DNA of 37,654 bases from a virus (IMGVR_UViG_2529292719_000024), one strand, 5' to 3'. Counted from the first letter of the stretch, positions 8,439-15,296 are shown. Numbers and translations are program-made. Notes: generated by a model not told the origin, from the sequence alone.

Positions 8439-8641
8439 GGGGCAATATCCTCTTCTGTACGGGCTTCTTCAGCCTCAATCACCGGGATCAGTAACAACAG
8501 CCCGGAGGGCAGCACCGGCGTGATGGCCACGTGCGGATTGGCGGCAATAATCCGGGGATAGCCCAGCGGGTCACCGTAGTACTGCCATGCCAGCGAATCC
8601 CAGCGCTCTCCGTCACGGGTAACATGTTCAAGAAACATCAC
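8426..8641 (-). CDS. tail protein X-like (LysM-type small tail protein)
   Basis: 71 aa with LysM-like stretch DGERWDSLAWQYYGDPLGYPRIIAANPHV; overlaps both neighbours. Confidence 0.55.
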   Translation of the reverse strand: MMFLEHVTRDGERWDSLAWQYYGDPLGYPRIIAANPHVAITPVLPSGLLLLIPVIEAEEARTEEDIAPWLR

Positions 8642-9522
8642 ACACTCCTCGTCAGTATTCTGGCGGCCATTGCACTTAATCCCGGAGACATGCGGTTGAA
8701 TGCTGTTCCGACGGCGTTAAGCTGCCCGGAAACGGTATCCAGAGCACCTGCAATATTTCTTTTGTCCACACCACTCAGCGCAGACTGTGCCTGCTGTACA
8801 TACGTGGCTGCTTCGCTGGCTGTTCTGGCCAGACTGATGGCATCGGGCATGGATTCAGAGAGTGCGTTAAACGCCGGAACACTTTTCCCCAGAGCCCCGG
8901 AGATATTACCCAGTCCGCTCATCAGCCCCGGCACACGGGTCAGTGCGACAACGGGGTTATCCTTCATTTTCTGTGTCACCCGAACGGCGCTGATAGTGGT
9001 CTGGAGTACAGACTGCGCCTGTTTCGCATAGTTGACGCCGTTGCGGATGAACTGCGCCACCCCGGAAGGTGAAGGAATGGCACCGGAGACCGCCCCGACA
9101 CCCGGGAGCTTCGTGCGTATTGCCGGTGGTTGCAGAGGATTTTTCGGGTCACCGGTGTATTCCCGGAGAGACACGGTGGCACTGACAGCCAGCACGTTGC
9201 CGGTACTGTCAGTCTGCTCGCTGGTTGCAGTCACATCGGTAATCACGAACCAGCCGCGATAGTCACCGTTGCCGAAGACCAGCGCCAGTGCCTGATGGGC
9301 TTTCATGGCTGTTCGCAGTCTCGCCAGCTCCACATCGGGTACACAATAATGCTGATGGAAAACCAGAGTTATCTGGATTTCGTCCAGCCTGTCGCCGACG
9401 AACTGCAGGCCAGGCTTACCCCCGATGCGGGCATGCTCCGCATAATCGACGCCGAACGTGGCCTCGAAGCCGTCCCAGTAGGTAATCAGCTCAAACTCAA
9501 TATCACCCAGTACGGCAAACAT
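8638..9522 (-). CDS. tail protein (P2 gpU-like N-terminus / Mu DNA-circularisation protein N-like)
   Basis: 294 aa directly downstream of the tape measure gene, 1-nt overlap; N-terminal region resembles gpU-type tail proteins. Confidence 0.55.
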   Translation of the reverse strand: MFAVLGDIEFELITYWDGFEATFGVDYAEHARIGGKPGLQFVGDRLDEIQITLVFHQHYCVPDVELARLRTAMKAHQALALVFGNGDYRGWFVITDVTATSEQTDSTGNVLAVSATVSLREYTGDPKNPLQPPAIRTKLPGVGAVSGAIPSPSGVAQFIRNGVNYAKQAQSVLQTTISAVRVTQKMKDNPVVALTRVPGLMSGLGNISGALGKSVPAFNALSESMPDAISLARTASEAATYVQQAQSALSGVDKRNIAGALDTVSGQLNAVGTAFNRMSPGLSAMAARILTRSV

Positions 9523-12473
9523 CAGCGGTACTCCTTACGTTGTTTCTGAGCCAGCAGACGCTCCAGCATTTTTTCCAGCTCATGCAGACTCATATTCAGG
9601 GCACCAGTCAGTCCTGCAGGCGCTGTGGTTTCCCTGCCATTGAGGAAAAACTGAGGATTAAAGCTGACCTGGATACCACCAGACGTTCCACCGCCGGTTG
9701 CAGCTGCACCACGGCCTGAATATCCGGCAGCCAAGATTTCAGGCGAGGGGATACGGGGAACATCCGGTGTCATCTCATTTGCCAGACGTTGCCCTGGTAA
9801 AATCGATGCCCGGGTGGAGAGCGGAATAACGGGCATGGAAGACAAACTATTGATTACGGCTCCGATCGCATTTTTAGCAGACGACATAAACCCATTGATA
9901 TCGGGCAACGGCATACTGAAGCGAACACCTGAAGTGTTATCCCGTATTTCTGGCCCCTGAATGCTCACGGGCATTCTGGGGAGCAGTTCACTGGCCATTC
10001 GCTGCCCGGCCAGAGCTGCAAGCGGAGTGGTCCGCTGCAGGCCAATGGCGGCCCCCTGCGCGATATTGTCACCAAAGCCCATAAACACGCGGCTCGGCGA
10101 ATGAATGCCCAGCTTTTCGCTGAACCAGCCACTGATGCTGTCACCCATTCCGGTTACACTGGATTTGAGCGACTCCCATTTGTTTTTGATACCGTTAATC
10201 AGACCGTCGACAAGATGGCCACCGAAGTCGGTGAACTTTGCCGGCAGATCAACACCAAGATATTTCAGCGCAGCTGCAAAGGCTTTATAGAGCAGACCTG
10301 CCGGCGACCAGTTAATCAGCAGCTTACCAGTTCCCGCGATACCGCCGTTAAAGGCTTCCTGAATGTCAGCCCAGCACTGTTTAAACCAGCTACTGATGCT
10401 GTCACCCATTCCGGTTACACTGGATTTGAGCGACCCCCATTTGCTTTTGATACCGTTAATCAGACCGTCGATAAGATGGCCACCGAAGTCGGTGAACTTT
10501 GCCGGCAGAGCAACGCCGAAATATTTCAGCGCAGCCGCAAAGGCTTTATAGAGCAGGCCTGCCGGCGACCAGTTAATCAGCAACTTACCAATTCCCACAA
10601 TGCCGCCGTTAAAGGCTTCCTGAATGTCAGCCCAGCGCTGTTTAAACCAACCACTGACAGCCCCCCAGTTGCGGTAGATAAGGTAAGCTGCTGTCGCGAC
10701 AGCGGTGATAACGAGACCGATGGGATTCATCATCAGCGCTCGCCCAATCCAGAGAACGGCACGTGCAGCGCTCATAAAACCGCGAACGAGGCTGCCCGCC
10801 AGAACTTTGCTGAGTTTCAGTCCTCCGCTGGTCAGTCGGCTGAATCCAGTGACAAGCCAGCGTAATTTGCCACCTTCTCCGAGTGCGGTAGTCAGTCGAT
10901 GCCAGTTGGTCCGGAGTAAAACAGTAGTTTTCCAGACGTTCACAAAGGGGGAAATAAGGAGATTCAGCCCCAGTTTGAGACCAATAGTCGCTATCTTAAT
11001 CGCAAGGAGCGCACTGATGAGCTTAAAAGCCCCACTGACAAATTGCGGGTGAGTCGCTACCCAGTGTTTTGTCCCCTGAATGAGTGGGAGCAGTTCCTGA
11101 GTCAGAGAAATAAAAGATGGAGCTAATTGATCGCCCAGCGTAATTGCCAGATCGCGACTGCTGACCATAAGTGTTTTAGTGGCTTCAAGGGGAGATTTCA
11201 GCCGCTGATCATAAGCACTGGCAAGCAAATCGTTATCCGCAGCCCTGAGAGCACCGGCACGGATCTCTCGATATCTGTCCATGTTGGCCAGCATCGGGCG
11301 GATAAATGCCATGACCTGCATATCCGCGAACATATCGCCCAGACCAAAGTTTTTCGCCAGAGCCTGAAGTGCCTCATCTCTTGCCGTATCATTCTTTATT
11401 TTCATGGCTGATTTGAAGCCGGCCAGCGCTTCGGGGCTTTTGGCATTGAGGTAACGTTCTATAACACTCAACATCCCTTCAATCGGAGAGATCCCCGCAG
11501 CTTTATAACTCGCAATAGATCCCTGCAAATCAATACCCAGATCAGCAAACTGTTTCTGAGTATCGCGGGCAAAAATTTTGGTAAGAAAGTTTTTAAAATT
11601 ATTGGCTGCTTCGTCGGTGGAACCTGCACCGATTTTTGCTATCTGGAGACTGGCCCCGATTTCAGCAACAGCCTCTTTTCCACTGGCAAGACCCGCCATC
11701 ATTGGGGCCAGGGACTGCATCCACTTGACCTGATCCGGGATTTCAAATGACCCCTGGTCACCGGCATAAGCCATAATATTCTGAACGGCACCAAAATCTC
11801 TGGCCGCACCTTTCAGGGAGTTTTGCCAGACTGCGGCCACTTTTGCCCAGTCCTGAGCAGACGTGCGTGTTGCCGTTGCCGCGCGGGCAATATCCGGCAT
11901 CAGAAAACCGATATCTGACACATTATCAATATTGTCGCTGATGAGTGAACCCACCGCCTCCTGCAGCTCATCCTGATACTGATTGTATTTAAGCGCCCAG
12001 CCTTTTATCTGTCCGGCAAGTGCATCCCGCGTTTTATTGTCATATTTTGCGGTGATCGACATATCAATCATTTTGTCCTGAAAAGACATGGACTGCTGAA
12101 CGGCAGGGGAAACCGTATGATAAACAGTCTGTGCCATGCCATACGCTTCAATCCCCTGACCATACAGCGCCATGCGGTTAGCTTTCAGCGCATCACTGGT
12201 AGCGGATGCCGCTGACAGACGGCGCTGCTGGCGCTCAATTTGCTCCATGGTGCGGCTTACCCGCAGCAGCTCGCTGTTGAGATGCTGCATCCGGGAAGAA
12301 CCCAGTTGACCATAACGTTCTGTTGCACGGGTTAAAGCGTTCTGACGTTCCTGCAGGCGGCGTGAGGTATCGCTCAGGGAATCAAGCGCACGGCGGGTAC
12401 CGCTCATTGCAGAACGGAATGTGCTGCCAATCATCCCGCCGATAACAACGCCGACTGAAAACTGTCCCGACAT
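9522..12473 (-). CDS. tail tape measure protein
   Basis: 983 aa, largest ORF in the tail module; coiled-coil N-terminus, internal hydrophobic segments, internal duplication; sits after the chaperone gene. Confidence 0.9.
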   Translation of the reverse strand: MSGQFSVGVVIGGMIGSTFRSAMSGTRRALDSLSDTSRRLQERQNALTRATERYGQLGSSRMQHLNSELLRVSRTMEQIERQQRRLSAASATSDALKANRMALYGQGIEAYGMAQTVYHTVSPAVQQSMSFQDKMIDMSITAKYDNKTRDALAGQIKGWALKYNQYQDELQEAVGSLISDNIDNVSDIGFLMPDIARAATATRTSAQDWAKVAAVWQNSLKGAARDFGAVQNIMAYAGDQGSFEIPDQVKWMQSLAPMMAGLASGKEAVAEIGASLQIAKIGAGSTDEAANNFKNFLTKIFARDTQKQFADLGIDLQGSIASYKAAGISPIEGMLSVIERYLNAKSPEALAGFKSAMKIKNDTARDEALQALAKNFGLGDMFADMQVMAFIRPMLANMDRYREIRAGALRAADNDLLASAYDQRLKSPLEATKTLMVSSRDLAITLGDQLAPSFISLTQELLPLIQGTKHWVATHPQFVSGAFKLISALLAIKIATIGLKLGLNLLISPFVNVWKTTVLLRTNWHRLTTALGEGGKLRWLVTGFSRLTSGGLKLSKVLAGSLVRGFMSAARAVLWIGRALMMNPIGLVITAVATAAYLIYRNWGAVSGWFKQRWADIQEAFNGGIVGIGKLLINWSPAGLLYKAFAAALKYFGVALPAKFTDFGGHLIDGLINGIKSKWGSLKSSVTGMGDSISSWFKQCWADIQEAFNGGIAGTGKLLINWSPAGLLYKAFAAALKYLGVDLPAKFTDFGGHLVDGLINGIKNKWESLKSSVTGMGDSISGWFSEKLGIHSPSRVFMGFGDNIAQGAAIGLQRTTPLAALAGQRMASELLPRMPVSIQGPEIRDNTSGVRFSMPLPDINGFMSSAKNAIGAVINSLSSMPVIPLSTRASILPGQRLANEMTPDVPRIPSPEILAAGYSGRGAAATGGGTSGGIQVSFNPQFFLNGRETTAPAGLTGALNMSLHELEKMLERLLAQKQRKEYR
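10105..10620. repeat. 258-bp in-frame tandem duplication inside the tape measure gene
   Basis: Two consecutive near-identical 86-aa blocks (KQRWADIQEAFNGGIVGIGKLLINWSPAGLLYKAFAAALKYFGVALPAKFTDFGGHLIDGLINGIKSKW... then KQCWADIQEAFNGGIAGTGKLLINWSPAGLLYKAFAAALKYLGVDLPAKFTDFGGHLVDGLINGIKNKW...); antisense ORFs 10105-10290 and 10363-10551 are offset by exactly 258 nt. Confidence 0.8.
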
Positions 12474-12548
12474 AGTGGTTAACCTCCGGGGAAGGTGAAA
12501 AGACGTGAGGGGATAACGCAGAACAGCCGCTACTGGCGGCTGTCTGTA

Positions 12549-12806
12549 CTATGATTTGTCGCCGTACTCGCTTTTGATTTGCTCTTCAGCCTGCTCCAGC
12601 CACATCTCCAGATCGTCAGTATCGAGGGCATCAATCTCCCCCGGCTGAAACCGGAACCATCTCGCCAGCAGCCCCTGCGCCTGCGTCAACGCCCTGGTTG
12701 CTCTCACCCATCCCCGTGATGAGCTGAAATCGTTTCTGTAACTGCAGGTAATCAGCCAGATCCATATTGTCGAGATCTTCCGGGAGAAGACCAGTACTGC
12801 GGGCAA
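12549..12806 (-). CDS. possible frameshift extension of the tail assembly chaperone (E'-like)
   Basis: Overlapping ORF in the +1 frame relative to the chaperone; reading through from the chaperone's last codons would add an acidic tail DALDTDDLEMWLEQAEEQIKSEYGDKS. Only the part after the shift point would be translated. Confidence 0.3.
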   Translation of the reverse strand: MPAVLVFSRKISTIWIWLITCSYRNDFSSSRGWVRATRALTQAQGLLARWFRFQPGEIDALDTDDLEMWLEQAEEQIKSEYGDKS

Positions 12807-12966
12807 TCAGCGGTTCGTCCCAGTCTGCCGGGTTTTTGCTGATTTTGCGCACCTGCTTCAGGTCTTTTACCGTCAGGCGTTTCAGTTCAACCAGCTCAAT
12901 TCTGGTGCCTGCAGCAGTGGTGAAGGGATAAGACAATTTAAAAGTATCGGATGGGGTCTGTGACAT
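12631..12966 (-). CDS. tail assembly chaperone (P2 gpE / Mu gp41-like)
   Basis: 111 aa immediately upstream of the tape measure gene, with an overlapping downstream ORF in another frame; AGGAG ribosome-binding site ~7 nt upstream of the ATG. Confidence 0.65.
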   Translation of the reverse strand: MSQTPSDTFKLSYPFTTAAGTRIELVELKRLTVKDLKQVRKISKNPADWDEPLIARSTGLLPEDLDNMDLADYLQLQKRFQLITGMGESNQGVDAGAGAAGEMVPVSAGGD

Positions 12967-13036: not shown

Positions 13037-13060
13037 GAAGAAGGGGCCGGAGCCCCTGTG
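13037..13060 (-). terminator. candidate intrinsic terminator / attenuator inside the tail operon
   Basis: Hairpin GGGGC-CGGA-GCCCC (13043-13056) followed on the minus-strand transcript by U-rich uucuucuuaaucuccuuuaau; lies between the hypothetical gene 13064-13345 and the chaperone. Confidence 0.35.
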
Positions 13061-13063
13061 ATG

Positions 13064-13345
13064 TCAGCAAGTGCGAAACCCCTTGCAGTTACGCAGGAAA
13101 GCGATGAGAAGCGTCTTTCCCTCAGATTTGCCGATGCCGGAGAACCAGTGGTCGGGAGGCTCCCATGCTTCAATCAAATCCGCCAGTTTGCGGGCCTTTG
13201 AACGTGTGCAGTCAATCGGGTCATTGGTTTTACGGGTATTAAAAAGGGTTTCCACCCCCGGAATATCAAGGAGGGTAAACCACGTACCATTTGACATGCC
13301 CAGTGCCGCACATCGTCCTCCTTTATCCGTCAGTTCAACCCTCAC
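13064..13345 (-). CDS. hypothetical protein between tail tube and chaperone genes
   Basis: 93-aa ORF, start 3 nt after the tube gene stop; no recognisable family. Confidence 0.45.
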   Translation of the reverse strand: MRVELTDKGGRCAALGMSNGTWFTLLDIPGVETLFNTRKTNDPIDCTRSKARKLADLIEAWEPPDHWFSGIGKSEGKTLLIAFLRNCKGFRTC

Positions 13346-13347
13346 CG

Positions 13348-13869
13348 TCAGCCCCCGATATTGATACGGTAGTCAGTCAGTTGATCAACACCGCCGACCC
13401 GGAAGATGTTGGCCAGATAGTCCAGTTGCAGCAGCTCTTCACCATCCAGTACCTGTCTGATATACGTGCAGGTGAAGCTACTGGAGAACTCGGCGTTCTC
13501 GTGCTGTTTGAACGTCCCCAGCGGGTTCTTCTTGAACATAATCGTCAGGAAGGTGACCAGCGGGATTTCGTCAATCAGCCCCTGCGAGCTGTAGCGCTGG
13601 ACGCTGGAACGACACTGCAGTGCCAGCGACCTGTACGGGTTCGCGGCAGACAGCATCGCATCGCGGTAAAAGCTGTTCCATTTGATTTCGCCTTCCAGCT
13701 TGTCAAACCCAGCCGGGAGTTCCACCTTACCCACCATCCCCAGCGCCTTGTGTTCCTGCATAATCATGGAGACATCGGGGAGTTTGACTTCCTCAGCCCG
13801 TCCCAGCAGGTTAGTACCATCCAGATAGATGTTGGCATTCGTGATGCGGTTTATCTCAATCTTTGACAT
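13348..13869 (-). CDS. tail tube protein (P2 FII / Mu M-like)
   Basis: 173 aa immediately after the sheath gene (1-nt overlap); N-terminal NANIYLDGTNLLGRAEEVKLP pattern as in contractile-tail tube proteins. Confidence 0.8.
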   Translation of the reverse strand: MSKIEINRITNANIYLDGTNLLGRAEEVKLPDVSMIMQEHKALGMVGKVELPAGFDKLEGEIKWNSFYRDAMLSAANPYRSLALQCRSSVQRYSSQGLIDEIPLVTFLTIMFKKNPLGTFKQHENAEFSSSFTCTYIRQVLDGEELLQLDYLANIFRVGGVDQLTDYRINIGG

Positions 13870-15296
13870 CAGTTGCCCCCTTTCAGGGTTAACAGGTATT
13901 CCGAGGTGATCTCAGTCTCAAACGTCAGTCGCTCCAGCGGCGGTGGTGGCGTATATTTGTAGCTCAGCAACAGGTGCCCGGCGGCCAGCTCCGTCTCCGG
14001 ATTGCGGGCCGGATCAAACCAGCAACGGAAGCCCAGTACCGCACCATCACCAGTCATTTTGCGACCGTAGGCGTTGACCGACTCCGTCAGTGCATCAATC
14101 AGCGCCTGAGTAATCGGCATGTCGATGTACTGCTGGCTGAAATAACGAATGGACTCGTTGATCACATCACCGGTGCGGCGAACGTTCTCAAAGTTACGCA
14201 TATGGGTGACCGTTGGCCATGCTGCCGTCCGGTTACCCCACAGACGAAGGCCGCTGCCGTAACTGCTGAATACCGTGGTGATCCCCTGTTCGTTAAGCAG
14301 GTTCACCTCACTCTGCGGGTCATCAATCATCGCGGACAGCTGGCGCTCCACGCCGGTGATCCCCAGAATCTCCTGATTGGAGGATGACCACCAGTAGCCC
14401 TTGTCCAGATCGACTCTGGCACGCAGACCTGCTGCACGCTGGCTGAGCGGCTCCAGACGCTCTGTGTTTGTCACCGGGTCATATACCTTCACATGCGGAT
14501 AGCACAGACGGACGCGGTCGGAGCTGGTATTGAAGTTGATGGTGCCTTCCGGGCCACGACCTGCCAGAGCCTGTGCAAAGGTGGTACCGACAGGCGCATC
14601 AATGTAGGTTATCGCGCCCAGCTTCTCTGCCATGGCGATAAGCTCAACTGCGACACTCTTCTGGGTGCAGAACACCGGCGCAATCAGAATTTTGGCGAAA
14701 TAGCCGTACAGGTTGAAGCTGTCGTTAAGCAGCTTCATGCCGGTTCGGTTTCCGGCGCTGTTCACCCCGCCGATGATGTCCGCCGCAGTCACCTTCGACG
14801 GGTCCGCGTACTCATAGCTCACCTTCACGCTGCCACCGGCCTCAATAGCCTTGCCCAGGTTCGTGAGCACACCCGCCTGCGCATCAACACGGTAGTCCGT
14901 GTTCGCCGTGTGGGTGGTGCTGCCTTCACTGTTTTTCACCACCACATTAGCGACAACCGGATGCGCCAGTCTGGCCTGCCCTGTCGATTTGTCAAAGGTA
15001 ACCACCTCATCCTCGATCGCCGTTTTATGTTTCGCCGGGTCGAGGACGTTAATGACCAGAACGGTGCCTGCACCATGGTCATAAATCGCATCCAGCGCCT
15101 GCGGAATGGTAAAGCCGGTGAACTGGCTGCCAAATGCCGCTGCGTCTTTCTCAGACAGGCACTGTACCAGCGTATTGACATCCCCCATCGGGGCGGTACC
15201 AATCAGGCCAATAACGGCAGATTTCACCGTTTTAACCGGGCGGGCTCCGTTTTCCACCTCAATGGTTTCGGGACCATGCAGATAGTTAGCTGCCAT
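13869..15296 (-). CDS. tail sheath protein (Mu L-like)
   Basis: 475 aa, directly upstream of the tube gene; size and position typical of a contractile sheath. Confidence 0.85.
   Translation of the reverse strand: MAANYLHGPETIEVENGARPVKTVKSAVIGLIGTAPMGDVNTLVQCLSEKDAAAFGSQFTGFTIPQALDAIYDHGAGTVLVINVLDPAKHKTAIEDEVVTFDKSTGQARLAHPVVANVVVKNSEGSTTHTANTDYRVDAQAGVLTNLGKAIEAGGSVKVSYEYADPSKVTAADIIGGVNSAGNRTGMKLLNDSFNLYGYFAKILIAPVFCTQKSVAVELIAMAEKLGAITYIDAPVGTTFAQALAGRGPEGTINFNTSSDRVRLCYPHVKVYDPVTNTERLEPLSQRAAGLRARVDLDKGYWWSSSNQEILGITGVERQLSAMIDDPQSEVNLLNEQGITTVFSSYGSGLRLWGNRTAAWPTVTHMRNFENVRRTGDVINESIRYFSQQYIDMPITQALIDALTESVNAYGRKMTGDGAVLGFRCWFDPARNPETELAAGHLLLSYKYTPPPPLERLTFETEITSEYLLTLKGGN

What the first reader, a model, noticed from the sequence alone, without database searches (positions are those of the whole stretch)
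12549..12966. Tail assembly chaperone with an overlapping ORF in the +1 frame: possible non-canonical programmed frameshift at the stop codon
The gene pair before the tape measure has the usual chaperone/extension layout, but the downstream ORF is +1 (equivalently -2) relative to the chaperone, not -1. The only short route into it is near the last codons: ...GCC GGG GGA GAT TGA TGC CCT..., where a +1 shift at the stop would add DALDTDDLEMWLEQAEEQIKSEYGDKS. The run CCGGGGGAG just upstream could alternatively allow a -2 slip.
Basis: inference. Interest (0 to 1): 0.45.

Follow-up and report, generated by a model that had tools for sequence, protein, structure and literature searches.

The report
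Tail chaperone +1 frameshift, site relocated
The phage tail-assembly chaperone gene does carry a conserved extension in the +1 frame, but ribosomes most likely enter it about 95 bases upstream of the stop codon, by a +1 slip on CGA_UUU_C, which makes this an ordinary but so far unannotated member of the known tail-chaperone frameshift family.

Summary
On the minus strand a 111-aa tail assembly chaperone (12631-12966, Pfam Phage_TAC_7) lies between the tube and tape-measure genes. An ORF in its +1 (= -2) frame overlaps it and ends at 12549.

The proposed entry point does not hold. Among 98 distinct relatives, only 22 have a G5 run that 0-frame ribosomes can reach. The 0-frame stop sits at six different positions. 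The +1 peptide GLLARWFRFQPGEID, encoded upstream of the run, is almost invariant, while the 0-frame residues there vary at +1 wobble positions.

The only element shared by 116 distinct sequences is UUU_C at chaperone codon F80 (window 12729-12726). CGA precedes it in 97 of 98 enteric and Ralstonia-type sequences. Stop codons bracket the shift to -8..+27 nt around this site. The site aligns with Phe84 inside phage P2's proven -1 slippery heptamer GGU_UUU_UUG.

Best explanation: a low-level +1 P-site slip of tRNA-Phe (UUU to UUC) yields a 138-aa product like P2 E+E'. Entry into the +1 frame by a programmed shift is well supported. The exact site and direction are inferred, and no protein data exist. 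Phage Mu (-2) and other phages (+1) already show this kind of frameshift, so novelty is modest.

The parts
12631..12966 (-). Tail assembly chaperone gene in the 0 frame, 111 aa, comparable to P2 gpE and lambda gpG. An AGGAG Shine-Dalgarno sequence lies 8 nt upstream of the ATG.
   Evidence: ORF list and sequence. Pfam PF10109 Phage_TAC_7, E = 5.5e-21. RefSeq calls it 'phage tail assembly protein'.
12726..12732 (-). Proposed +1 shift site CGA_UUU_C. CGA is R79 (12732-12730), UUU is F80 (12729-12727) and the C is at 12726.
   Evidence: TTT_C in 98 of 98 and CGA in 97 of 98 distinct enteric and Ralstonia-type relatives, while other invariant residues use mixed synonymous codons. UUU_C is also present in all 18 BcepMu-type and Komp-type sequences. 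Stop codons bracket the shift to -8..+27 nt. The site aligns with F84 of the P2 slippery heptamer.
12549..12725 (-). +1-frame extension read after the shift, 58 aa plus TAG: SSSRGWVRATRALTQAQGLLARWFRFQPGEIDALDTDDLEMWLEQAEEQIKSEYGDKS. The predicted fusion protein is 80 + 58 = 138 aa.
   Evidence: Translation. phrog_8286, E = 5.5e-34. Variation falls at +1 wobble positions. No conserved start codon or Shine-Dalgarno sequence in this frame.
12570..12668 (-). Core of the extension that resembles P2 E' (fusion residues 100-132, LARWFRFQPGEIDALDTDDLEMWLEQAEEQIKS).
   Evidence: Pfam PF06528 Phage_P2_GpE positions 4-36 of 37, E = 0.0016, 18.3 bits, below the 23-bit cutoff. BLASTP to P2 E+E' residues 107-133, E = 0.03. 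Colinear hhalign, E = 1.9e-4.
12631..12644 (-). Judged not to be the conserved shift site.
   Evidence: Sequence. Only 22 of 98 relatives have a reachable G5 run. The 0-frame stop position is variable.
9522..12473 (-). Tape measure protein gene, 983 aa. It is the presumed substrate of the chaperone.
   Evidence: Pfam PF10145, E = 1.2e-20. Annotated as such in PhiKM and RefSeq.
13348..13869 (-). Tail tube gene (P2 FII-like). It is the presumed binding partner of the extension domain.
   Evidence: Pfam PF04985, E = 2.9e-53.

Best explanation
The window is a Bcepmuvirus-like E. coli prophage, 99.6% identical to phage PhiKM. Its tail operon encodes a gpE/gpG-type tail assembly chaperone.

Most ribosomes read the 0 frame and make the 111-aa chaperone. 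A minority, with peptidyl-tRNA-Phe on UUU (F80) in the P site, slip one base forward onto UUC within CGA_UUU_C (12732-12726, minus strand). They then continue in the +1 frame for 58 codons and produce a 138-aa fusion.

By analogy with lambda G/GT and P2 E/E+E', the shared N-terminal domain would coat the tape measure protein. The extension, which resembles P2 E', would recruit tube subunits, so the shift frequency would set the ratio of the two proteins.

**Shown here**
- Gene order, frame relation and family membership of the chaperone.
- Purifying selection on the +1 frame.
- Nucleotide-level invariance of UUU_C, and of CGA in one clade.
- The stop-codon bracket around the site.
- Positional homology with the P2 slippery site.

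**Inferred**
- That the shift is ribosomal and in the +1 direction.
- That it happens by a P-site slip of tRNA-Phe. A possible helping role of the weak I:A-decoded CGA in the E site is speculative.
- The shift efficiency and the roles of the two products.
For: 1. **Context.** Sheath, tube, chaperone, tape measure and gpU-like genes lie in order. The window is 99.6% identical to PhiKM, a Bcepmuvirus.
2. **Frame.** The extension is in the +1 frame in the window and in all relatives, including BcepMu, phiE255, a Salmonella prophage and Ralstonia and Pseudomonas phages.
3. **Selection switches frame.** Upstream of the site, diversity peaks at 0-frame position 3 (42 v 5 and 37 v 8 codons). In the E'-like part it peaks at the +1 wobble position (27 v 3 and 23 v 2).
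4. **Site invariance.**
   - TTT_C occurs in 98 of 98 and CGA in 97 of 98 distinct sequences.
   - Other invariant residues use mixed codons: Asp 41/56, 82/16 and 45/53; Tyr 47/51.
   - A nearby Phe varies between TTC, TTT and TAC.
   - BcepMu-type sequences have UCC/GCC/UCU_UUU_CGC/U, although UUU is only 10 of 59 Phe codons in neighbouring genes. Komp-type sequences have GUG/ACG_UUU_C.
   - CGA is 9 of 138 Arg codons in neighbouring window genes.
5. **Bracket.** The +1 frame opens only 8 nt upstream of TTT in Ralstonia-type and Komp-type sequences. The 0 frame ends by +30 or +36 nt in lineages that keep the +1 ORF intact.
6. **P2 homology.** P2 E+E' is annotated with a -1 shift at GGT_TTT_TTG. 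The fusion alignment aligns colinearly with E+E' (4-123 v 5-135, E = 1.9e-4), and window F80 falls on P2 F84. The extension lengths are 58 and 56 aa.
7. **No separate gene signals.** No start codon or Shine-Dalgarno sequence is conserved in the +1 frame.
8. **Precedent.** P-site slippage on UUU_C is the established +1 mechanism for influenza PA-X (UCC_UUU_CGU). Those authors predicted a wider UUU_C class with restricted A- and E-site codons (PMC3498833). Phage tail chaperone genes use -1, -2 or +1 shifts (PMC5009743; PMC10274946).
Against: - There is no protein-level evidence. All support is comparative.
- Between the site and LLARWF (about 50 nt) the wobble-phase signal is mixed: 11 v 6 and 7 v 6 codons, not significant. 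Selection data alone therefore do not pin the switch to UUU_C.
- The upper bracket rests on a few lineages with early 0-frame stops, and these could be defective.
- Invariance of CGA_UUU_C could partly reflect dual coding (R-F in frame 0, D-F in frame +1) if the shift were one codon earlier.
- The 0-frame A-site codon after UUU (CAG, CAA or CUG) is not rare, and no stop follows it.
- No conserved stimulatory RNA structure was found (consensus -2.2 kcal/mol), and no conserved upstream Shine-Dalgarno-like element was seen. The drive for shifting is therefore unexplained and may be weak.
- The match to PF06528 is below Pfam's cutoff, and hhalign probability is only 47%.
Confidence: 0.68

Rival explanations
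1. The shift occurs at the end of the chaperone gene, either as +1 at the stop (GAT_TGA) or as -2/+1 on the G5 run (GCC_GGG_GGA). It would add about 27 aa (EIDALD...).
For: - The run GGG_GGA would allow perfect re-pairing of tRNA-Gly, either +1 from GGG or -2 from GGA.
- Phage Mu uses a -2 shift on a G5 run, CGG_GGG_CGA (PMC5009743).
- Genomic or assembly variants fused at this run exist: L014, L093, P0003-P0005 and P0007-P0009.
Against: - Only 22 of 98 distinct relatives have a G5 run reachable in frame 0. 29 terminate upstream of it and 47 lack it.
- The product would lack LLARWFRFQP, which is under strong +1-frame selection and is part of the E'-like domain.
- tRNA-Asp on GAU cannot re-pair on AUU.
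- The run's bases vary as ordinary wobble positions.
Confidence: 0.05
2. A programmed shift into the +1 frame does occur in this phage, but at another position between F80 and LLARWF. One candidate is +1 on GGG_G (GCA_GGG_GCU, 12673-12670). Another is out-of-frame decoding at the rare CGA codon, with Asp-tRNA reading GAU, giving ...QK-DF-SSS....
For: - Most enteric relatives have CAGGGG just before LLARWF.
- CGA is rare (9 of 138 Arg codons) and almost invariant.
- D-F in the +1 frame is invariant.
- The phase signal in the linker is ambiguous.
Against: - The fourth G of CAGGGG varies freely (G, C, T or A) and is absent in Salmonella-type sequences.
- Lineages with 0-frame stops at +30 or +36 cannot reach it.
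- CGA is replaced by UCC, GCC, GUG or ACG in the BcepMu and Komp clades, whereas UUU_C is universal.
- The Trp six residues after the site (W86) is invariant in the +1 frame across 16 diverse sequences.
Confidence: 0.17
3. There is no frameshift. The +1 ORF is a separate small gene translated from its own start codon, as several deposited annotations imply (BcepMu gp42, KompPAO1 CDS0016, phrog_8286).
For: - Annotators have called it as a stand-alone ORF.
- It forms its own PHROG family.
- The window has a TTG at 12806.
Against: - No start codon occupies a conserved position. The best is in 44 of 98 sequences, and none of those has a Shine-Dalgarno-like sequence.
- In Ralstonia-type and Komp-type sequences the frame opens only 8 nt before UUU_C.
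- The peptide aligns with P2 E', which is known to be made only as an E+E' fusion.
Confidence: 0.05
4. The overlap is a by-product of indels or sequencing error, or a decaying gene, with no function.
For: Databases contain many one-off fused or broken versions. Some relatives are in-frame fusions (L014, L093).
Against: - The same two-frame arrangement is present in 116 distinct sequences from several bacterial orders, with purifying selection in the +1 frame.
- Matches to this 561-bp stretch occur in 637 of 5426 complete E. coli genomes, 576 of them at 99% identity or more.
Confidence: 0.02

Closest known systems
Phage P2 gpE / gpE+E' (-1 programmed frameshift at U_UUU_UUG)
   Same: - The chaperone domain is homologous (Pfam Phage_TAC_7), and the gene sits in the same place between the tube and tape-measure genes.
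- The extension is homologous at low similarity (PF06528-like; colinear hhalign E = 1.9e-4).
- The shift codon aligns: window F80 (UUU) falls on P2 F84 (UUU).
- The fusion lengths are similar, 138 v 142 aa.
   Different: The direction is +1 here and -1 in P2. The site is CGA_UUU_C instead of the heptamer GGU_UUU_UUG. The 0-frame tail after the site is 31 aa here and 6 aa in P2.
Phage Mu gp41 / gp41-42 (-2 programmed frameshift, about 2.2%)
   Same: The extension lies in the same relative frame (+1 = -2). The chaperone belongs to the same Pfam family by name ('E, or 41 or 14'). Both are myovirus tail operons and both phages have a Mu-like lifestyle (PMC3498833; PMC5009743).
   Different: Mu shifts on CGG_GGG_CGA near the end of gp41, a G5 run followed by a rare CGA in the A site. 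Here the window's G5 run is not conserved, and the conserved site is UUU_C. The Mu extension shows no PF06528 match.
Lambda gpG / gpGT (-1 at G_GGA_AAG) and the general tail-chaperone frameshift of Xu, Hendrix and Duda 2004
   Same: The gene position, the two nested products sharing an N-terminus, and the presumed role in setting the G:GT ratio for assembly on the tape measure all match (PMC5009743).
   Different: No sequence similarity was detected. The direction and slippery motif differ.
Influenza A PA-X +1 frameshift (UCC_UUU_CGU), with UUU-pyrimidine +1 sites in E. coli
   Same: The proposed slip is the same: P-site tRNA-Phe moving from UUU to UUC, with no stop codon and no obvious RNA structure. 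BcepMu relatives have UCC_UUU_CGC, which is almost the PA-X motif.
   Different: The host here is bacterial. The E-site codon is CGA in this clade, and the A-site codon is CAG, CAA or CUG rather than a rare Arg codon. The proteins are unrelated.
prfB (RF2) +1 frameshift at CUU_UGA with an upstream Shine-Dalgarno-like element
   Same: The direction is +1.
   Different: Here no stop codon lies at the conserved site, the 0-frame stop position varies, and no Shine-Dalgarno-like element was seen at the required spacing upstream of the site in the sequence sets printed.

Membership tests
Tail assembly chaperone frameshift pair (lambda G/GT type) | Gene lies between the major tail or tube gene and the tape-measure gene. 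| tested here: met
   Tube 13348-13869, chaperone 12631-12966, tape measure 9522-12473, all on the minus strand.
Tail assembly chaperone frameshift pair (lambda G/GT type) | A second ORF overlaps the 3' part of the chaperone gene in another frame and lacks its own translation start. | tested here: met
   +1-frame ORF to 12549. No start codon or Shine-Dalgarno sequence conserved across 98 relatives.
Tail assembly chaperone frameshift pair (lambda G/GT type) | A slippery sequence is conserved in relatives within the overlap. | tested here: met
   UUU_C in 116 of 116 distinct sequences and CGA_UUU_C in 97 of 98 in the enteric/Ralstonia clade. It is a +1-type site, not the usual X_XXY_YYZ.
Tail assembly chaperone frameshift pair (lambda G/GT type) | Both the short and the extended protein are made, at a fixed low ratio, and both are needed for tail assembly. 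| not testable with these tools
   Needs proteomics or genetics.
Pfam PF10109 Phage_TAC_7 (P2 E, Mu gp41) | Score above the gathering threshold (25 bits). | tested here: met
   74.8 bits, E = 5.5e-21, residues 8-81.
Pfam PF06528 Phage_P2_GpE (E' region) | Score above the gathering threshold (23 bits). | tested here: not met
   18.3 bits, E = 0.0016, over profile positions 4-36 of 37. Profile comparison with P2 E+E' gives E = 1.9e-4 and probability 47%. It resembles the family but is not a certified member.
Mu-type -2 frameshift | A conserved G run read as xGG_GGG in frame 0, followed by a slow codon, and used by relatives. | tested here: not met
   The window's run is GGG_GGA_GAU. It is reachable in only 22 of 98 relatives and absent in 47. 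The Mu site was read directly for comparison.
prfB-like +1 shift at a stop codon | [quoted passage not shown] | tested here: not met
   The 0-frame stop lies at six different distances. GAU to AUU gives no re-pairing. No Shine-Dalgarno-like element at that spacing was seen in the printed sequence sets; a systematic scan of all relatives was not run.
UUU_C P-site-slip +1 class (PA-X type) | UUU in frame 0 followed by C, invariant at synonymous positions. | tested here: met
UUU_C P-site-slip +1 class (PA-X type) | A junction peptide showing Phe followed by the +1-frame residue, and loss of shifting when UUU_C is mutated. | not testable with these tools
   Needs mass spectrometry or a reporter assay.

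The most novel reading that the evidence does not exclude
This family would be a bacterial and phage example of the PA-X-type +1 frameshift class, which slips on UUU_C with restricted flanking codons and no stop codon or RNA structure.

The site sits at exactly the codon where the homologous P2 gene shifts -1 on U_UUU_UUG. That would mean one anchored Phe codon has changed frameshift direction during evolution while the two-domain product was kept.

The near-invariant rare CGA (decoded by an I:A wobble) would then act as an E-site enhancer. The product is missing from current RefSeq annotation of a prophage whose chaperone region matches 637 of 5426 complete E. coli genomes, 576 of them at 99% identity or more.
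Probability: 0.55. Interest if true: 0.5.

Novelty: new member of a known kind. Interest (0 to 1): 0.4.

Why it matters
**Annotation.** The 138-aa product is absent from the deposited records checked: one RefSeq E. coli genome and the PhiKM, KP12 and Komp_PAO1_1 records. The feature names in the 12 E. coli rows listed also show no second product. In BcepMu and phiE255 the +1 ORF is instead called a separate gene. Matches to this chaperone region occur in about 12% of complete E. coli genomes. Naming the real site would allow correct annotation.

**Recoding biology.**
- It adds a well-sampled natural case of +1 shifting on UUU_C in bacteria, with no stop or rare A-site codon.
- It gives a testable idea about an E-site CGA.
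- Within one homologous chaperone family it shows -1 (P2, Pasteurella phage), +1 (this clade) and -2 (Mu) solutions. Two of them are anchored on the same Phe codon.

**Method.** A frameshift site can lie far from the 0-frame stop. It can be located by combining stop-codon brackets from relatives with invariance at synonymous sites.

Tried and rejected
- **Shift at the stop or G5 run.** Rejected from 98 relatives.
- **+1 slip on GGG_G just before LLARWF.** I considered this first. It was rejected as the shared site because the fourth base varies (G, C, T, A), Salmonella-type sequences lack it, and early-stop lineages cannot reach it.
- **prfB-like GUU_UAG with a GAGGUG Shine-Dalgarno-like element in KP12-type relatives.** Rejected because the +1 peptide upstream of it is under selection.
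- **Conserved downstream RNA structure.** RNAalifold on 28 diverse sequences gave -2.2 kcal/mol with essentially no covariation.
- **Conserved upstream Shine-Dalgarno-like element.** None was seen. AAGGAG-CGA-UUU occurs only in a few Ralstonia-type sequences.
- **Independent start for the +1 ORF.** None is conserved.
- **NCBIfam.** No hits for the chaperone, the fusion or the extension.
- **PDB sequence search with the fusion profile.** Nothing relevant.
- **Search for annotated full-length fusions.** The 138-aa hits are one-off indel products with junctions at different places, not annotated frameshift products.
- **Papers not held.** Christie et al. 2002, and Xu et al. 2004 was not among the search results. 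Their content is cited only through papers that quote them.

Full report
**1. What is in the window**

All relevant genes are on the minus strand.
- Tail sheath, 13869-15296 (PF04984 and PF17482).
- Tail tube, 13348-13869 (PF04985, E = 2.9e-53).
- A 93-aa ORF of unknown function, 13064-13345.
- A 111-aa ORF, 12631-12966, that matches Pfam Phage_TAC_7 ('tail assembly chaperone proteins E, or 41 or 14') at E = 5.5e-21.
- A 983-aa tape measure protein, 9522-12473.
- A P2 gpU-like gene, 8638-9522.

The region is 99.6% identical to Escherichia phage PhiKM, classified as a Bcepmuvirus. Matches to the 561-bp chaperone stretch occur in 637 of 5426 complete E. coli genomes, 576 of them at 99% identity or more.

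**2.

A second open frame runs from 12806 to a TAG at 12551-12549. It overlaps the last 176 nt of the chaperone gene. Chaperone codons start at coordinates congruent to 0 mod 3 and the second frame's at 2 mod 3. On the minus strand that is one base downstream, so the frame is +1 (= -2) and not -1.

**3. The extension is real and conserved**

The same arrangement, always +1, is present in many relatives:
- Klebsiella phage KP12, Escherichia phage Phi06_2974 B, a Salmonella Infantis prophage, Ralstonia phage YO107_2, BcepMu and phiE255.
- Nine further genomes of other Enterobacterales.
- 120 viral contigs.
- BcepMu-type and Pseudomonas Komp_PAO1-type contigs.

After removing duplicates there are 98 distinct enteric and Ralstonia-type sequences, 12 BcepMu-type and 6 Komp-type. 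The +1 peptide ...GLLARWFRFQP(G/S)EID.L..D....W...A..QIK... is almost invariant.

In the same nucleotides the 0-frame residues vary: AAGEVV*, PAGEMVQVSAGGD*, SPGEVV*, ATGEVV*, GKVVQ.... These changes fall on 0-frame position 1, which is the +1-frame wobble position.

Mean pairwise diversity by codon position shows the switch:
- Upstream of the site, 0.19/0.15/0.44 for 0-frame positions 1/2/3. Position 3 exceeds position 1 in 42 v 5 codons.
- In the extension domain, 0.35/0.15/0.11. Position 1 exceeds position 3 in 27 v 3 codons.
- The independent Ralstonia-type group gives the same flip (37 v 8, then 23 v 2).

**4.

- The 0-frame stop lies at six different distances from the upstream landmark. 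In 37 of 98 sequences it is a TAG directly after ...GEVV, upstream of the G run.
- Only 22 of 98 have a G5 run reachable in frame 0. 29 have it behind a stop, and 47 lack it: CCGAGTGAG, CCCAGTGAA, CCTGGGGAG and others, which is ordinary wobble variation of Pro-Gly/Ser-Glu.
- A shift there would skip LLARWFRFQP, the most conserved part of the extension.
- At GAU_UGA the P-site tRNA-Asp has nothing to re-pair with.

**5. Where the shift most likely is**

I looked for what all sequences share between the opening of the +1 frame and the first 0-frame stop.
- **Lower bound.** In Ralstonia-type and Komp-type sequences a +1-frame TGA ends 8 nt before a TTT codon.
- **Upper bound.** Lineages L107/L111/L121 end the 0 frame 30 nt after that TTT (...RFQAMLSMAA*), and L035 ends it at 36 nt (...GESN*). 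Both keep the +1 ORF intact.
- **Inside this 35-nt bracket** the only invariant bases are CGA_TTT_C. TTT_C occurs in 98 of 98 and CGA in 97 of 98 (one CGG).

Controls support nucleotide-level selection:
- Other invariant residues in the same gene use mixed synonymous codons: Asp 41/56, 82/16, 45/53; Tyr 47/51; Glu 89/9.
- A Phe two codons downstream varies between TTC, TTT and TAC.
- CGA is 9 of 138 Arg codons in the window's neighbouring genes.
- In the GC-rich BcepMu clade the aligned codon is still UUU_C (UCC/GCC/UCU_UUU_CGC/U in 12 of 12), although UUU is only 10 of 59 Phe codons nearby.
- Komp-type sequences have GUG/ACG_UUU_C in 6 of 6.

In the window the site is CGA 12732-12730 (R79), TTT 12729-12727 (F80) and C 12726.

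**6. Homology with P2**

P2 E+E' is annotated with a -1 shift at GGT_TTT_TTG (sequence; also described in PMC3931495).
- From the conserved D-L motif, both proteins have Phe as the 12th residue: DLVALAGKVVGF in P2 and DLADYLQLQKRF here.
- A profile of 16 predicted fusion proteins aligns colinearly with P2 E+E' (columns 4-123 v residues 5-135, E = 1.9e-4, probability 47%). Window F80 falls on P2 F84, the UUU inside the slippery heptamer.
- The extension matches Pfam PF06528 (P2 GpE) over positions 4-36 of 37, but below threshold (18.3 bits v 23).
- The predicted fusion is 80 + 58 = 138 aa, against 142 aa for P2.
- A Trp six residues after the site (W86) is invariant in the +1 frame in the 16-sequence alignment.

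**7. Mechanism**

At CGA_UUU_C the only re-pairing that works is peptidyl-tRNA-Phe moving from UUU to UUC, which is +1. A -2 move would land on GAU.
- This is the mechanism shown for influenza PA-X (UCC_UUU_CGU). tRNA-Phe binds UUC better than UUU, and those authors predicted a class of UUU_C sites with restricted E- and A-site codons (PMC3498833).
- I found no conserved RNA structure, no conserved Shine-Dalgarno-like element, and no slow A-site codon.
- The shift is therefore probably inefficient. That would fit the low levels known for lambda and for Mu, about 2.2% (PMC3498833).
- A role for CGA (I:A wobble) as a weak E-site codon is my inference only.
- The function of the two products follows from lambda G/GT and P2 E/E+E' (PMC5009743) and was not tested here.

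**8. Limits**

- No protein data exist.
- Between the site and LLARWF the phase signal is mixed (11 v 6 and 7 v 6 codons). This is expected for a weakly constrained, doubly read linker, but it means selection alone does not fix the site.
- The upper bracket depends on a few lineages that might be defective.
- A shift one codon earlier (out-of-frame decoding at CGA) or, in this lineage only, at GGG_G further down is not excluded.

**9. Comparison and novelty**

Frameshifting in tail chaperone genes is well known.
- -1 is usual, -2 occurs in Mu, and +1 occurs in other phages (PMC5009743).
- 350 'forward' cases are listed among actinobacteriophage annotations (PMC10274946).
- The Mu site, read directly, is CGG_GGG_CGA.
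- A Pasteurella phage relative carries the same E'-like domain in the -1 frame.

This is therefore a new member of a known kind. What seems not to be recorded is the site itself.
- In the RefSeq genome checked only the 111-aa protein is annotated, and the other 11 listed hits show the same feature names.
- PhiKM, KP12 and Komp_PAO1_1 show no joined CDS.
- BcepMu annotates the +1 ORF as a separate 'G-like' gene, with a further ORF as the slippage product.
- A protein search with the predicted fusion found only one-off indel fusions.

**10. Verdict**

- Observation: confirmed.
- Interpretation: partly supported. The frameshift into +1 is supported, but the site is wrong.
- Best explanation: +1 slip at CGA_UUU_C, confidence about 0.68.
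- Interest: moderate to low, 0.4.

Noticed in passing
window 10123-10657 (minus-strand tape-measure gene): The tape-measure gene contains a 261-bp unit repeated 2.0 times at 93% identity, which is an in-frame 87-aa duplication (also visible in the translation). Tape-measure length sets tail length, so this allele may give a longer tail. The PhiKM record has a sequencing gap in this gene.
   Followed up: partly
window 13041-13057 (minus strand): An intrinsic-terminator-like hairpin, AGGGGCTCCGGCCCCT followed by TCTTCTT, lies between the 93-aa ORF and the chaperone start, inside the tail operon. It could lower expression of the chaperone and tape-measure genes relative to sheath and tube.
   Followed up: no
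window 12519-12546 (minus strand): A stable GC-rich hairpin (ACAGCCGC-CAGUA-GCGGCUGU core) lies directly after the stop of the +1 ORF and before the tape-measure Shine-Dalgarno sequence. The 91-nt region folds at -27.6 kcal/mol, z = -3.8. Its function is unknown.
   Followed up: no
window 13064-13345 (minus strand): A 93-aa ORF sits between the tube and chaperone genes. It matches phrog_1239 (unknown function, E = 1.5e-47) and is present in PhiKM and KP12 but not at this position in BcepMu or phiE255.
   Followed up: no
window 12638-12642, with L014, L093 and proteins P0003-P0005, P0007-P0009: The G5 run is a recurrent indel point in public sequences. Erwinia tracheiphila (L014), L093 and several Logan-assembly proteins have a one-base loss in or beside the run (G5 to G4 in L014, a lost C before the run in L093) that fuses frame 0 to EIDALD.... 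This could be homopolymer sequencing error, real mutation or phase variation, and it was not resolved.
   Followed up: partly
L107, L111, L121 and L035 (relatives): These lineages have premature 0-frame stops 30 or 36 nt after the UUU_C site, giving chaperones of about 89-90 aa (close to the 91 aa of P2 gpE). They keep an intact and conserved +1 ORF.
   Followed up: yes
L003 (BcepMu NC_005882 24858-25363) and L007 (phiE255): The deposited BcepMu annotation treats the +1 ORF as 'gp42, lambda G-like', and a further overlapping ORF (gp43) as the T-like slippage product. phiE255 annotates the +1 ORF as a separate small gene, 'gp16, conserved domain protein'. The comparative data here suggest instead gp41 plus a +1 extension through UCC_UUU_CGC.
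   Followed up: partly
L141 (Pasteurella phage AFS-2018a, MH238466 22335-22800): This relative carries the same E'-like domain (VAWWFGWNVSEIEQMTLDELSTWLEQANRQIK) in the -1 frame, probably entered at CAA_AAG_G near the end of its chaperone gene. It is not annotated.
   Followed up: partly
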